From a virus (taxonomy: Duplodnaviria > Heunggongvirae > Uroviricota > Caudoviricetes): 4,434 bases of DNA. The notes below the pieces were generated by a model. The model was given only the letters and a program-made list of their open reading frames with translations. It searched no databases and was not told where the DNA came from. The stretch lies in the IMG/VR virus record IMGVR_UViG_2541047689_000001; one strand, 5' to 3'. A program made the position numbers and the translations under genes. Of this stretch, positions 385 through 2,695 are shown piece by piece (the stretch's first letter is position 1; each line of letters begins with the position of its first letter).

Positions 385-710
385 AGACCTTCCGCTGGAA
401 AGTGAAACCCGGTATGGATGTGGCTTCGGTCCCTTCTGTAAGAAAGGTGCGCTTTGGTGATGGCTATTCCCAGCGAGCGCCTGCCGGGCTGAATGCCAAC
501 CTGAAAACGTACAGCGTGACGCTTTCTGTCCCCCGTGAGGAGGCCACGGTACTGGAGTCGTTTCTGGAAGAGCACGGGGGCTGGAAATCCTTTCTGTGGA
601 CGCCGCCTTATGAGTGGCGGCAGATAAAGGTGACCTGCGCAAAATGGTCGTCGCGGGTCAGTATGCTGCGTGTTGAGTTCAGCGCAGAGTTTGAACAGGT
701 GGTGAACTGA
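381..710 (+). CDS. M: Minor tail protein M (109 aa)
   Basis: Complete ORF with ATG at 381 and TGA at 708-710. The translation (MKTFRWKVKPGMDVASVPSVRKVRFGDGYSQRAPAGL ...) is recognised as lambda gpM. It is translationally coupled to H and to L. Confidence 0.93.
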   Translation: MKTFRWKVKPGMDVASVPSVRKVRFGDGYSQRAPAGLNANLKTYSVTLSVPREEATVLESFLEEHGGWKSFLWTPPYEWRQIKVTCAKWSSRVSMLRVEFSAEFEQVVN

Positions 711-1408
711 TGCAGGATATCCGGCAGGAAACACTGAATGAATGCACCCGTGCGGAGCAGTCGGCCAGCGTGGTGCTCTGGGAAATCGACCTGACAGAGG
801 TCGGTGGAGAACGTTATTTTTTCTGTAATGAGCAGAACGAAAAAGGTGAGCCGGTCACCTGGCAGGGGCGACAGTATCAGCCGTATCCCATTCAGGGGAG
901 CGGTTTTGAACTGAATGGCAAAGGCACCAGTACGCGCCCCACGCTGACGGTTTCTAACCTGTACGGTATGGTCACCGGGATGGCGGAAGATCTGCAGAGT
1001 CTGGTCGGCGGAACGGTGGTCCGGCGTAAGGTTTACGCCCGTTTTCTGGATGCGGTGAACTTCGTCAACGGAAACAGTGACGCCGATCCGGAGCAGGAGG
1101 TAATCAGCCGCTGGCGCATCGAGCAGTGCAGCGAACTGAGCGCGGTGAGTGCCTCCTTTGTACTGTCCACGCCGACGGAAACGGATGGCGCTGTTTTTCC
1201 GGGACGTATCATGCTGGCCAACACCTGCACCTGGACCTATCGCGGTGACGAGTGCGGTTATAGCGGTCCGGCTGTCGCGGATGAATATGACCAGCCGACG
1301 TCCGATATCACGAAGGATAAATGCAGCAAATGCCTGAGCGGCTGTAAGTTTCGCAATAACGTCGGCAACTTTGGCGGCTTCCTTTCCATTAACAAACTTT
1401 CGCAGTAA
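710..1408 (+). CDS. L: Tail tip protein L (232 aa), with a C-terminal cysteine cluster
   Basis: Complete ORF with ATG at 710 (overlapping the M stop, TGATG) and TAA at 1406-1408. The translation (MQDIRQETLNECTRAEQSASVVLWEIDLTEVGGERYFF ...) is recognised as lambda gpL. An AGGTGG Shine-Dalgarno-like sequence sits at 697-702. The C-terminal 60 residues carry cysteines at C173, C182, C205, C208 and C212. Confidence 0.93.
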   Translation: MQDIRQETLNECTRAEQSASVVLWEIDLTEVGGERYFFCNEQNEKGEPVTWQGRQYQPYPIQGSGFELNGKGTSTRPTLTVSNLYGMVTGMAEDLQSLVGGTVVRRKVYARFLDAVNFVNGNSDADPEQEVISRWRIEQCSELSAVSASFVLSTPTETDGAVFPGRIMLANTCTWTYRGDECGYSGPAVADEYDQPTSDITKDKCSKCLSGCKFRNNVGNFGGFLSINKLSQ

Positions 1409-1412
1409 TCCC

Positions 1413-2156
1413 ATGACACAGACAGAATCAGCGATTCTGGCGCACGCCCGGCGATGTGCGCCAGCGGAGTCGTGCGGCTTCGTGGTGAGAACGCCGGAGG
1501 GGGAAAGATATTTTCCCGGCGTGAATATTTCCGGTGAGCCGGAGGCGTATTTCCGTATGTCGCCGGAGGACTGGCTGCGGGCAGAGATGCAGGGTGAGAT
1601 TGTGGCGCTGGTCCACAGCCACCCCGGTGGTCTGCCCTGGCTGAGTGAGGCCGACCGGCGGCTGCAGGTGCAGAGTGATTTGCCGTGGTGGCTGGTCTGC
1701 CGGGGTGAGATTCATAAGTTCCGCTGTGTGCCGCATCTTACCGGGCGGCGCTTTGAGCACGGGGTGACGGACTGTTACACGCTGTTCCGGGATGCTTATC
1801 ATCTGGCGGGGATTGAGATGCCGGATTTTCATCGCGGGGATGACTGGTGGCGTCACGGTCAGAATCTCTATCTGGATAATCTGGAGGCCACAGGGCTGTA
1901 TCAGGTGCCGTTGTCAGCGGCGCAGCCGGGCGATGTGCTGCTGTGCTGTTTTGGTTCATCGGTGCCGAATCATGCCGCCATTTACTGCGGCGACGGCGAG
2001 CTGCTGCACCATATTCCTGAACAACTGAGCAAACGAGAGAGGTATACCGACAAATGGCAGCGACGCACACACTCCCTCTGGCGTCACCGGGCATGGCACG
2101 CATCTGCCTTTACGGGGATTTACAACGATTTGGCCGCCGCATCGACCTTCGTGTGA
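1413..2156 (+). CDS. K: Tail assembly protein K (247 aa from ATG 1413), with JAB/MPN metalloprotease and NlpC/P60 cysteine peptidase motifs
   Basis: The frame is open from the TTG at 1371 (the track start) to the TGA at 2154-2156. The first ATG is at 1413, 5 nt after the L stop. A canonical JAMM motif H68-x-H70-x7-S78-x2-D81 (VHSHPGGLPWLSEAD, nt 1614-1655) is seen directly, with an upstream Glu at E20. An NlpC/P60-like Cys (VTDCY, C121) and His (NHAAIY, H187) follow. The start is uncertain: an internal ATG at 1557 (M49) is preceded by GGAGG at 1541-1545. Confidence 0.85.
   Translation: MTQTESAILAHARRCAPAESCGFVVRTPEGERYFPGVNISGEPEAYFRMSPEDWLRAEMQGEIVALVHSHPGGLPWLSEADRRLQVQSDLPWWLVCRGEIHKFRCVPHLTGRRFEHGVTDCYTLFRDAYHLAGIEMPDFHRGDDWWRHGQNLYLDNLEATGLYQVPLSAAQPGDVLLCCFGSSVPNHAAIYCGDGELLHHIPEQLSKRERYTDKWQRRTHSLWRHRAWHASAFTGIYNDLAAASTFV
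1541..1545 (+). promoter_or_regulatory. Internal Shine-Dalgarno-like GGAGG, 11 nt upstream of the in-frame ATG 1557 inside K
   Basis: GGAGG is seen at 1541-1545. It could drive internal initiation of a shorter K form, or it could simply be the Gly-Gly-encoding sequence it lies in. Confidence 0.3.
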
Positions 2157-2695
2157 AAACGGGGGCTGAAGCCATCCGGGCGCTGGCCACACAGCTCCCG
2201 GCGTTTCGTCAGAAACTGAGCGACGGCTGGTATCAGGTACGGATTGCCGGGCGTGATACAGGTGAAACGGAATTATCAGCCCGTCTTAATGAACCGCTGG
2301 CAAATGGTGCTGTGATCCATATCGTGCCGCGTCTGGCAGGAGCCAAAAGTGGCGGTGTGTTTCAGGCTGTGCTGGGGGCGGCTGTTATGGCGGTTGCTAT
2401 ATGGATGCCGGGGGTAGGAATTATGGCGAGTAATCTGCTGTTTTCTCTCGGTGCCAGTATGACGCTTGGCGGTGTTGCACAGATGCTGGCCCCTAAACCC
2501 AGAACCCCCCGCACACAGACAACGGATAACGGCAAACAGAACACCTATTTTTCTTCACTGGATAATATGGTTGCCCAGGGCAATGTTCTGCCCGTTCTGT
2601 ACGGTGAAATGCGCGTGGGATCACGTGTGGTATCTCAGGAGATCAGCACAGCAGATGAAGGTGATGGTGGTCAGGTTGTGGTGATTGGTCGCTGA
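2054..2695 (+). CDS. I: Tail assembly protein I (213 aa): N-terminal ubiquitin-like region ending in Gly-Gly, a hydrophobic middle segment and a C-terminal domain
   Basis: Complete ORF with ATG at 2054 and TGA at 2693-2695. The translation (MAATHTLPLASPGMARICLYGDLQRFGRRIDLRVKTGAEAIRALA ... ; C-terminus NGKQNTYFSSLDNMVAQGNVLPVLYGEMRVGSRVVSQEISTADEGDGGQVVVIGR) is recognised as lambda gpI-like. It starts inside the 3' end of K in a different frame, with a 103-nt overlap. An AGAGG Shine-Dalgarno-like sequence sits at 2038-2042. Confidence 0.9.
   Translation: MAATHTLPLASPGMARICLYGDLQRFGRRIDLRVKTGAEAIRALATQLPAFRQKLSDGWYQVRIAGRDTGETELSARLNEPLANGAVIHIVPRLAGAKSGGVFQAVLGAAVMAVAIWMPGVGIMASNLLFSLGASMTLGGVAQMLAPKPRTPRTQTTDNGKQNTYFSSLDNMVAQGNVLPVLYGEMRVGSRVVSQEISTADEGDGGQVVVIGR

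What the first reader, a model, noticed from the sequence alone, without database searches (positions are those of the whole stretch)
1614..1973. K carries two distinct peptidase signatures in one small protein
A metal-dependent JAB/MPN (JAMM) motif at nt 1614-1655 is followed by an NlpC/P60-type Cys (C121 in GVTDCYTLF, nt 1773-1775) and a His (H187 in NHAAIY, nt 1971-1973), with H199/H200 as a possible third residue. This JAB plus NlpC/P60 fusion in lambda-type K proteins has been noted in comparative-genomics work on prokaryotic ubiquitin-like systems. Its substrate during tail-tip assembly is not firmly established as far as I know.
Basis: partly seen in the sequence, partly recalled or inferred. 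Interest (0 to 1): 0.5.

Follow-up and report, generated by a model that had tools for sequence, protein, structure and literature searches.

The report
Lambda K: two-peptidase tail assembly protein
The window encodes a lambda-type tail-tip assembly protein K that carries a metal-dependent deubiquitinase-like domain fused to a cysteine-peptidase domain; this is real and strongly conserved, but it was described in 2003-2006, and its cutting of the ubiquitin-like domain off the neighbouring protein I has been reported at a 2025 meeting.

Summary
K (nt 1413-2156, 247 aa) has a complete JAMM motif (E19, H68-x-H70-x7-S78-x2-D81) and an NlpC/P60 triad (C121, H187, H199).

- **Profile and fold evidence.** Pfam places both halves above its curated cut-offs. 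A pLDDT-97 model matches JAMM deubiquitinases and NlpC/P60 hydrolases separately. All catalytic residues are kept in at least 93 of 94 homologs of 33-58% identity (S78: 88 Ser, 5 Thr).
- **Context.** The window is a lambdoid H-M-L-K-I-J block, and its K differs from lambda K at 8 non-catalytic residues.
- **Prior knowledge.** The architecture and the idea that K's JAB cuts the ubiquitin-like N-domain of I were published in 2003/2006. Cryo-EM shows only I's C-terminal third in virions. F-pyocin work shows the I homolog's N-domain is removed during assembly. A 2025 plenary reports that gpK cleaves gpI. So this is already known.
- **What I add.** The likely cut site is a conserved G83-(S/A)84-K85-x-x-G88 junction in I (nt 2339-2356), best guess 84|85. 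The lambda reference annotation (199 aa, from Met49) omits the JAB N-terminus and Glu19.
- **Still open.** The role of the equally conserved NlpC/P60 site remains unknown.

The parts
1413..2156 (+). Gene K, 247 codons plus stop: tail tip assembly protein K, long form
   Evidence: ORF and translation. 8 substitutions relative to lambda's in-frame 247-aa ORF. phrog_30, E 1.9e-162. AF2 pLDDT 97, pTM 0.91.
1419..1727 (+). JAB/MPN+ (JAMM) metallopeptidase domain, residues 3-105
   Evidence: PF14464, E 1.3e-13. PDB 2kks, E 1e-5. Foldseek: PfJAMM1 5ld9/5lda, TM 0.67-0.69, rmsd 2.5 A; also AMSH, Rpn11, CSN5.
1467..1469 (+). Glu19, the JAMM general-base glutamate (PAESCG)
   Evidence: Conserved 93/94. 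Lies upstream of Met49, the start annotated in lambda.
1614..1655 (+). JAMM zinc motif H68-S-H70-x7-S78-x2-D81
   Evidence: H68, H70 and D81 invariant 94/94; S78 is Ser or Thr in 93/94. The His residues end strand 62-69 and S78/D81 flank the start of helix 79-88.
1743..2084 (+). NlpC/P60 (C40, papain-like) peptidase domain, residues 111-224
   Evidence: PF00877, E 1.7e-12. Foldseek: MepS/Spr, LytE, Acd33800, TM 0.57-0.69.
1770..1775 (+). Asp120-Cys121; Cys121 is the nucleophile at the N-terminus of helix 121-131
   Evidence: D120 94/94, C121 93/94. DSSP helix 121-131.
1971..1973 (+). His187, general base of the NlpC/P60 triad (NHAAIY)
   Evidence: 93/94. Aligns with the catalytic-position His of 8idc_E and 4xcm_A.
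2007..2012 (+). His199 (third triad residue) and His200
   Evidence: H199 93/94, H200 88/94. H199 aligns with the third-position His of 8idc_E and 4xcm_A.
2100..2141 (+). C-terminal helix of K (residues 230-243), encoded inside the K/I overlap
   Evidence: DSSP. Many distant K homologs end near residue 225. The overlap with I is 64 nt from the 2093 start or 103 nt from the 2054 start.
2093..2695 (+). Gene I (200 aa from ATG 2093; 213 aa if ATG 2054 is used): the proposed substrate of K
   Evidence: PF06805 Lambda_tail_I, E 1.4e-24. The homologs' N-termini fit the 2093 start. Solved as lambda gpI in 8iyk and 9e7m.
2093..2344 (+). Ubiquitin-like (beta-grasp, MoaD/ThiS-type) N-domain of I, residues 1-84
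   Evidence: Iyer 2006. Predicted beta-beta-alpha-beta-beta-alpha-beta order, but at low confidence. Best fold matches MoaD, SUMO, Ub, Ddi1-UBL, none significant.
2339..2356 (+). Junction G83-A84-K85-S86-G87-G88: predicted processing site, best guess the 84|85 bond
   Evidence: K85 and G88 invariant and G83 at least 90% in 33 sequences. The register against MoaD's C-terminal Gly-Gly puts G83 on G80. pLDDT dips at 81-89. The motif is conserved inside the patch most divergent from lambda.
2423..2692 (+). C-terminal plug domain of I, equivalent to lambda gpI residues about 134-223, the only part seen in virions
   Evidence: Cryo-EM papers. Mapped onto the window sequence.

Best explanation
K is a cytoplasmic, non-structural maturation enzyme of the lambdoid tail tip, built from two intact peptidase domains. 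The N-terminal JAMM domain uses a zinc held by H68, H70 and D81, with E19 as general base and S78 stabilising the intermediate. It recognises the MoaD/ubiquitin-like N-domain of the neighbouring protein I and cuts the linear peptide bond at the end of that domain, within G83-A84-K85-S86-G87-G88 and most likely between residues 84 and 85. This releases the Ubl and leaves I's C-terminal plug domain in the tip, where it holds the end of the tape-measure protein. The uncut Ubl acts as an assembly checkpoint that blocks premature joining of tip, tape measure and tube. K then leaves and is absent from the virion. The C-terminal NlpC/P60 domain (C121, H187, H199) is also an active enzyme, judging by its conservation, but its substrate is not known. 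What is shown here: both domains, intact and conserved sites, both folds, the K-I gene linkage, and the conserved junction in I. What is taken from the literature: I's N-domain is missing from particles, K is absent from particles, and gpK cleaves gpI. What is inferred: the exact bond, and that the JAB rather than the NlpC/P60 site makes the cut.
For: Both Pfam domains score above their cut-offs. The complete E-HxH-S-D motif and the Cys-His-His triad are at the stated coordinates, and each residue is conserved in at least 93/94 diverse homologs (S78 as Ser or Thr). The AF2 model has pLDDT 97, and its two halves match JAMM deubiquitinases, including PfJAMM1 bound to the Ubl SAMP2, and NlpC/P60 hydrolases. 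K homologs occur in 1,766 phage records, 1,723 of them covering at least 80% of K. The L-K-I-J order is kept down to about 30% identity. I carries PF06805 and an invariant K85/G88 junction after its last beta strand. That junction survives in the region most divergent from lambda. The best fold matches of the I model are MoaD, SUMO and ubiquitin. Literature: the prediction of 2006; only gpI 134/135-223 is resolved and gpK is not detected by mass spectrometry in lambda virions; the N-region of PA0640 (I homolog) is present in stalled F-pyocin tips but gone from mature particles, while PA0639 (K homolog) is absent from particles and its deletion gives tipless tubes; gpK cleaves the Ubl of gpI once I is in the tip complex (plenary summary).
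Against: The only direct experimental statement I could find is a conference summary, not a primary paper. The I model has low confidence (pLDDT 46), so the beta-grasp fold of I rests on published profile searches plus non-significant fold matches. Nothing here shows which of K's two active sites makes the cut. I could not model a K:I complex: the tool gives no coordinates and the fusion alignment was contaminated. The junction has a single conserved Gly followed by Ser or Ala rather than a canonical Gly-Gly, and one Klebsiella phage has Ala at position 83. PA0640 expressed alone in E. coli lost its N-region to unknown host proteases, so loss of the N-domain does not by itself prove cleavage by K.
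Confidence: 0.8

Rival explanations
1. The papain-like NlpC/P60 domain, alone or with the JAB, cuts I. The JAB would then serve mainly to bind and position the Ubl, or the two sites would make two successive cuts (for example at 84|85 and at or beyond G88).
For: The NlpC/P60 triad is as conserved as the JAMM site, so it must do something enzymatic. K works in the cytoplasm, away from peptidoglycan. Most eukaryotic deubiquitinases are papain-like, and Iyer et al. suggested the NlpC/P60 domain might also process the Ubl protein. The junction holds two conserved glycines five residues apart.
Against: An intact JAMM site, with E19 and the zinc ligands essentially invariant, is not expected for a binding-only MPN domain. 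The plenary summary attributes the cleavage to K's 'deubiquitinating domain'. Archaeal and bacterial JAMMs are the enzymes known to cut linear Ubl fusions, and the closest structural match is PfJAMM1 with SAMP2.
Confidence: 0.15
2. The NlpC/P60 half is a peptidoglycan peptidase used at infection, carried in or with the tail as proposed for the 150-residue NlpC/P60-only counterpart g14 of the Rhodobacter gene transfer agent.
For: RcGTA g14 degrades peptidoglycan, is needed for tail formation, and may sit in the tail lumen (PMC7296036). A similar claim is made for roseophage R4C. K gives a weak, sub-threshold hit to TIGR02219 'phage cell wall peptidase, NlpC/P60'. The nearest solved folds are cell-wall endopeptidases.
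Against: gpK was not found in lambda virions by mass spectrometry although low-copy gpZ and gpC were, and it is not resolved in any lambda structure. PA0639 is absent from mature F-pyocin. K's N-terminus is not hydrophobic, so there is no obvious export signal (sequence). The TIGR02219 score of 23.6 bits is far below the cut-off of 81.9.
Confidence: 0.12
3. K's JAB is mainly a counter-defence deubiquitinase that strips host Bil-type ubiquitin-like tags from the central tail fibre J.
For: [quoted passage not shown]
Against: K is required for tail assembly in hosts where no Bil system is invoked (lambda; F-pyocin deletion of PA0639). K is co-conserved with a cis-encoded Ubl substrate next door. 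K has no similarity to any PADLOC defence model at E <= 0.1. At most this would be a secondary benefit.
Confidence: 0.06
4. The motifs are relics: one or both domains are catalytically dead scaffolds.
For: None found, beyond the fact that MPN-minus and inactive NlpC/P60 domains exist in other families (general knowledge).
Against: All nine candidate catalytic residues are kept in 88-94 of 94 homologs whose mean column identity is 29%.
Confidence: 0.02

Closest known systems
Bacteriophage lambda gpK (tail tip assembly protein K; UniProt/GenBank form 199 aa, RefSeq PGAP form 247 aa 'C40 family peptidase')
   Same: The same gene in the same H-M-L-K-I-J block. 8 substitutions in 247 residues, none catalytic. 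About 96-97% nucleotide identity over the window.
   Different: Only allelic differences in K. The adjacent I gene carries a divergent Ubl second half and a linker 10 residues shorter.
TAPK/TAPI pair of Iyer, Burroughs and Aravind 2006 (JAB + NlpC/P60 next to a ThiS/MoaD-like Ubl in lambdoid and T1-like phages)
   Same: Exactly the architecture and neighbourhood described there, including the conserved Gly at the end of the Ubl and the predicted cleavage by the JAB.
   Different: That paper stated that I is not in the mature tail. Cryo-EM now shows its C-terminal domain is.
Minimal archaeal and bacterial JAMM peptidases that release Ubls: PfJAMM1-SAMP2 (PDB 5ld9/5lda), HvJAMM1 desampylase, Deinococcus DRJAMM (cuts a MoaD-MoaE fusion)
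   Same: Same fold (TM 0.67-0.69, rmsd 2.5 A) and same motif. They cut after the C-terminal Gly-Gly of MoaD/SAMP-type Ubls, including linear fusions (abstracts listed).
   Different: Only 22-24% identity. K scores 27.7 bits against a cut-off of 130 on the desampylase equivalog model, so it is not a member of that equivalog. K is fused to a second peptidase, and its substrate junction is G-(S/A)-K, not G-G.
NlpC/P60 cell-wall endopeptidases (E. coli MepS/Spr, B. subtilis LytE, C. difficile Acd33800)
   Same: Same papain-like fold and the same Cys-His-His order.
   Different: 15-21% identity. K has no export signal or wall-binding module and is cytoplasmic and non-virion, so a peptidoglycan substrate is doubtful.
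RcGTA g14 / TIGR02219 'phage cell wall peptidase, NlpC/P60 family'
   Same: Same position between the L-like hub and the J-like fibre genes. Required for tail formation.
   Different: 150 residues with no JAB domain, and no I-type Ubl partner is described. Reported to degrade peptidoglycan and perhaps to be packaged. K scores below that model's cut-off.
Pseudomonas F-pyocin PA0639 / PA0640
   Same: K and I homologs. The I homolog's N-region is removed on maturation, and the K homolog is absent from particles and needed for the tip.
   Different: A tailocin, not a phage. That preprint did not identify the protease.

Membership tests
JAMM/MPN+ metallopeptidases (Pfam Prok-JAB PF14464) | Profile match above the curated threshold | tested here: met
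   51.2 bits against a gathering cut-off of 25, E 1.3e-13, residues 3-105 covering profile positions 3-113 of 114.
JAMM/MPN+ metallopeptidases (Pfam Prok-JAB PF14464) | Complete E-x(n)-H-(S/T)-H-x7-S-x2-D motif (this separates MPN+ from MPN-minus domains) | tested here: met
   E19, H68-S69-H70, S78 and D81 are present and conserved in 93-94 of 94 homologs, counting Ser or Thr at 78.
JAMM/MPN+ metallopeptidases (Pfam Prok-JAB PF14464) | MPN fold, with the His pair at the end of a strand and Ser/Asp on the following helix | tested here: met
   AF2 pLDDT 97; strand 62-69 then helix 79-88. Foldseek matches 5ld9/5lda, AMSH, Rpn11 and CSN5.
JAMM/MPN+ metallopeptidases (Pfam Prok-JAB PF14464) | Zinc binding and (iso)peptidase activity on a Ubl C-terminus | not testable with these tools
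   Only a second-hand report of gpK cleaving gpI.
NlpC/P60 (MEROPS C40, Pfam PF00877) | Profile match above the curated threshold | tested here: met
   47.7 bits against a cut-off of 23, E 1.7e-12, residues 111-224 covering profile positions 1-105 of 105.
NlpC/P60 (MEROPS C40, Pfam PF00877) | Cys at a helix N-terminus, then His, then a third polar residue (His), in that order | tested here: met
   C121 opens helix 121-131, H187 opens strand 187-193, and H199 ends strand 196-199. Each is conserved 93/94. H187 and H199 align with the His residues of 8idc_E and 4xcm_A.
NlpC/P60 (MEROPS C40, Pfam PF00877) | Papain-like alpha+beta fold | tested here: met
   Foldseek matches MepS 8xup/8xud, Spr 2k1g, LytE 8i2e, 9ubf and 7v6s, with target TM 0.57-0.69.
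NlpC/P60 (MEROPS C40, Pfam PF00877) | Hydrolysis of gamma-D-Glu-mDAP or related peptidoglycan bonds | not testable with these tools
Cytoplasmic, non-virion localisation argues against this substrate.
Lambda-type tail tip assembly protein K (phrog_30) | Two-domain protein encoded between L and I/J in a siphophage tail-tip module | tested here: met
   phrog_30, E 1.9e-162. M, L, I and J identified by Pfam on either side. The same order is found in lambda, T1, phi1026b and a Stenotrophomonas phage.
HvJAMM1-type desampylase (NCBIfam NF041370, equivalog) | Score at or above the equivalog cut-off | tested here: not met
   27.7 bits against a cut-off of 130. K works like a desampylase but is not a member of that equivalog.
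TIGR02219 phage cell wall peptidase, NlpC/P60 family (GTA g14 type) | Score at or above the model cut-off | tested here: not met
   23.6 bits against a cut-off of 81.9.
Ubiquitin-like beta-grasp (ThiS/MoaD-type) N-domain in partner protein I | Beta-grasp fold ending in a conserved small-residue tail | tested here: inconclusive
   PF06805 match and a conserved G83/K85/G88 junction. However, the AF2 model has pLDDT 46, the best fold hit MoaD has E 0.017, and hhalign against MoaD gives E 0.12.

The most novel reading that the evidence does not exclude
The NlpC/P60 half of K is not a cell-wall enzyme. It would be a second, protein-directed cytoplasmic peptidase with its own tail substrate. [quoted passage not shown] K would then be a dual-protease checkpoint enzyme of tail assembly.
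Probability: 0.25. Interest if true: 0.55.

Novelty: already known. Interest (0 to 1): 0.18.

Why it matters
The K-I pair is a minimal, virus-encoded counterpart of ubiquitin-like processing by a JAMM deubiquitinase, used as a proteolytic checkpoint in building a phage tail. It is of real interest for the evolution of ubiquitin systems, for tail and tailocin assembly, and possibly for the interplay with bacterial Ubl-conjugating defences. But the architecture (2003/2006) and the K-cuts-I mechanism (reported 2025) are already in the field, so this window adds another allele rather than a discovery. The practical points that remain are these. Many records, including the reference lambda annotation, start K at Met49 and so hide the JAB N-terminus and its catalytic Glu. 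The function of the conserved NlpC/P60 site is still unassigned.

Tried and rejected
1. **Docking model from a natural fusion.** I tried to model K docked to I using the natural in-frame K-I fusion P0035. The first stacked alignment (A3) was badly misaligned. The second (A4) aligned K well, but K's C-terminal tails fell on the first strand of the Ubl and the I half was shallow. Since structure prediction returns no coordinates, the model could not have told which active site holds the tail, so I dropped it.
3. **Fold of I.** The I model built on the admissible alignment A5 came out at low confidence (pLDDT 46). Its fold matches (MoaD first) and the hhalign comparison with MoaD (E 0.12) are suggestive only.
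4. **My own script error.** In one search I compared the window with mEp332 instead of lambda, which briefly suggested that lambda's long K ORF is frameshifted. Searches show lambda's 247-aa ORF is intact and that the frameshift is in the mEp332 record.
5. **JAB-I fusions in phage genomes.** A JAB-only tblastn looking for JAB-I fusions without NlpC/P60 found only ordinary K genes. P0389 (NlpC/P60 plus I in one chain) looks like an assembly artefact with a duplicated segment.
6. **Defence-system similarity.** PADLOC gave no hit for K or I.
7. **Primary literature.** Searches for a primary paper on K-I cleavage found only the conference summary.

Full report
**What the window is.** The 4434-base window is a lambdoid tail-tip module. 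It holds the end of H (to 384), M (381-710), L (710-1408), K (1413-2156), I (2054 or 2093 to 2695) and the start of J (from 2756), all on the + strand. Pfam identifies M, L, I and J. It is 96-97% identical in nucleotides to lambda, mEp332 and many other lambdoid phages.

**The observation.** H68 is 1614-1616, H70 is 1620-1622, S78 is 1644-1646, D81 is 1653-1655, C121 is 1773-1775, H187 is 1971-1973 and H199/H200 are 2007-2012. The strict JAMM pattern H-x-H-x7-S-x2-D occurs once, and in only 39 of 20,000 shuffles of K. The upstream glutamate that completes the JAMM site is present as E19 (1467-1469).

**Family tests.** Pfam places residues 3-105 in Prok-JAB (51.2 bits, cut-off 25) and residues 111-224 in NLPC_P60 (47.7 bits, cut-off 23). 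By sequence, the closest solved chain is a bacterial JAB protein, 2kks (E 1e-5). NlpC/P60 enzymes align over the NHAAIY...LLHH segment, placing H187 and H199 on their catalytic-position histidines.

An exhaustive search of 1.84 billion representatives found 2,672 homologs. I aligned 94 full-length two-domain ones of 33-58% identity, with a mean column identity of 29%. H68, H70, D81 and D120 are invariant. E19, C121, H187 and H199 are each kept in 93 of 94. S78 is Ser or Thr in 93, and H200 is kept in 88.

AlphaFold2 with this alignment gives pLDDT 97 and pTM 0.91. The two histidines end strand 62-69, S78/D81 flank the start of helix 79-88, C121 opens helix 121-131, and H187 and H199 lie on adjacent strands. 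Foldseek against the PDB matches the N-half to PfJAMM1 (free and bound to the Ubl SAMP2; TM 0.67-0.69, rmsd 2.5 A), AMSH, Rpn11 and CSN5. It matches the C-half to MepS/Spr, LytE and Acd33800. No solved structure of K or of this two-domain arrangement turned up. Both signatures are therefore real, intact and under selection.

**Distribution and context.** tblastn finds K in 1,766 of 50,697 phage records, 1,723 of them covering at least 80% of K. These include T1, Tls, HK633, phiKO2, phi1026b and phages of Klebsiella, Ralstonia, Pseudomonas, Vibrio and Stenotrophomonas. The JAB half alone finds essentially the same set, always inside K-type genes. The order L-K-I-J is kept in distant relatives, sometimes with small inserted genes between K and I.

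**The partner, I.** I matches Pfam Lambda_tail_I. Alignments of diverse I proteins show that after the last strand of the N-domain (I-x-I-V-P) comes a conserved junction, G83-(S/A)84-K85-x-x-G88, followed by a hydrophobic, glycine-rich linker and the C-terminal domain. K85 and G88 are invariant and G83 is at least 90% conserved in 33 sequences. Numbering is from the ATG at 2093, so the junction is nt 2339-2356.

The window differs from lambda mostly at 2200-2500, with 113 differences in 300 nt that cover the second half of the Ubl and the linker. Yet GAVIHIVPR-x-AGAKSGGVFQ is unchanged.

My model of I is of low confidence (pLDDT 46). It has a beta-beta-alpha-beta-beta-alpha-beta order in residues 1-78 and a confidence dip at 81-89. 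Its best fold matches are MoaD (E 0.017, TM 0.68), SUMO-2/3, a ubiquitin variant, Ddi1-UBL, ISG15 and Hub1, none significant. A profile comparison with E. coli MoaD (sequence verified against 1fm0_D) is not significant (E 0.12). Its register puts G83 on MoaD's Gly80, so residue 84 corresponds to the C-terminal Gly81. From this I infer, with modest confidence, that the scissile bond is 84|85.

**What is already known.**
- Ambroggio et al. 2003 listed lambda K among JAMM proteins of unknown function.
- Iyer, Burroughs and Aravind 2006 described TAPK as JAB + NlpC/P60 and TAPI as a ThiS/MoaD-like Ubl with a conserved C-terminal glycine. They predicted that K's JAB releases the Ubl, and suggested the NlpC/P60 domain might also take part.
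- Cryo-EM of lambda and Ur-lambda resolves only gpI residues 134/135-223, as a trimeric plug holding the tape-measure C-terminus. gpK is not detected by mass spectrometry and is never resolved.
- In F-pyocin, the N-region of the I homolog PA0640 is present in stalled tips and absent from mature particles. The K homolog PA0639 is absent from particles and its deletion gives tipless tubes. The protease was left unidentified.
- I found no primary paper on this in the library.

**Mechanism.** The best-supported reading is that K is a transient, cytoplasmic maturation enzyme. Its JAMM site cuts the linear bond at the end of I's Ubl once I is docked in the J-L-I tip. This removes a steric block and lets the tape measure and tube join. 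K and the Ubl then leave.

*Shown here:* the two intact domains, their conservation and folds, the gene linkage, and the conserved junction. *Taken from papers:* the loss of I's N-domain, the absence of K from particles, and the cleavage itself. *Inferred:* the exact bond, and that the JAMM site makes the cut.

**The open part.** The NlpC/P60 triad is as conserved as the JAMM site, so it is very likely catalytic, but I could not assign its substrate. A peptidoglycan role, as proposed for the JAB-less RcGTA g14, fits the fold. It fits poorly with K's absence from virions, its lack of an export signal, and its sub-threshold score on the g14-type model. A second protein-directed cut, in I or in the tape-measure protein whose gpH-to-gpH* protease is unknown, is possible but untested. 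The suggestion that phage DUB domains counter the Bil defence system does not explain K's essential role in assembly or its cis-encoded Ubl partner, and K has no PADLOC match.

**Annotation points.** Lambda encodes the full 247-aa K in frame immediately after L, with 8 non-catalytic differences from the window. The classical annotation, however, starts at Met49 (199 aa), behind a GGAGG, and so omits the JAB N-terminus with Glu19. RefSeq/PGAP uses 247 aa. A 2020 review working from the 199-aa form saw only one peptidase domain. The mEp332 record has GGGGG changed to GGGG, which frameshifts the long ORF, and its 233-aa annotation replaces the JAB N-terminus.

**Verdict.** Interest is low. The residual open question is the function of the NlpC/P60 active site.

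Noticed in passing
window 1413-1556 (K codons 1-48); lambda imm21 locus L001 1558-2157: The classical lambda annotation of K (199 aa) starts at Met49, behind a GGAGG at 1541-1545, and leaves out the first 48 codons of the JAB domain, including the catalytic Glu19. The ORF is open and conserved from the ATG 4 nt after the L stop, and PGAP aa. Whether a short form is also made from Met49 is unknown.
   Followed up: partly
L002 (mEp332, PV340541.1) at the position of window 1495-1499: The closest phage record has a G5-to-G4 change that frameshifts the long K ORF after residue 30. Its annotated 233-aa K starts at an ATG that is out of frame in the window (1454) and lacks Glu19. This is either a homopolymer sequencing error or a real, viable frameshift. 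If real, it would bear on whether the JAMM site is essential.
   Followed up: partly
window 2054/2093-2156: K and I overlap by 64 nt (I start at 2093) or 103 nt (I start at 2054) in different frames. K's C-terminal helix (residues 230-243) is encoded entirely within the overlap. Many distant K homologs end near residue 225, and in T1 and phi1026b K overlaps I by only 4 nt, so this tail looks like a lambda-group extension written over the start of I.
   Followed up: partly
window 2200-2500: This is the patch most divergent from lambda (113 differences in 300 nt). It covers the second half of I's Ubl and the hydrophobic linker, which is 10 residues shorter here, whereas K upstream and I's C-terminal domain are nearly identical to lambda. 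It looks like a mosaic exchange inside gene I that spares the junction motif.
   Followed up: partly
proteins P0035, P0015, P0090, P0110, P0084, P0065, P0097: Databases hold many single-member K-I in-frame fusions, and some L-K fusions (for example P0025), from E. coli assemblies. They are most simply frameshift errors or decaying prophage genes within the K/I overlap. P0389 (Vibrio phage Vc1) has a duplicated segment and looks like an assembly artefact.
   Followed up: partly
L009 2250-2474, L010 2239-2574, L013 2300-2955: HK633, phiKO2 and Pseudomonas phage 5400 carry one or two small extra genes (morons, some followed by terminators) inserted between K and I, so K and I need not be translationally coupled.
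   Followed up: no
L011 (Vibrio phage VaK) 2217-3136: In this phage K is followed by opposite-strand anti-repressor-like and KilA-N genes, and there is no I homolog within 1.5 kb. I and J may lie further on, or the module may be interrupted.
   Followed up: no
window 710-1408 (L), Cys codons 173, 182, 205, 208, 212: The C-terminal third of L carries the cysteine cluster (CTWTYRGDEC ... CSKCLSGC) that corresponds to the iron-sulfur cluster modelled in gpL by cryo-EM. Its function is still described as unknown.
   Followed up: no
PHROG matches of K and I: PHROGs contains stand-alone JAB families (phrog_2635, phrog_5556), a stand-alone NlpC/P60 family (phrog_2552), and a family joining a JAB N-terminus to I (phrog_35166). 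These are split or fused variants of K, or gene-calling artefacts. True JAB-I fusions would be Rosetta-stone evidence for the JAB-Ubl partnership.
   Followed up: partly
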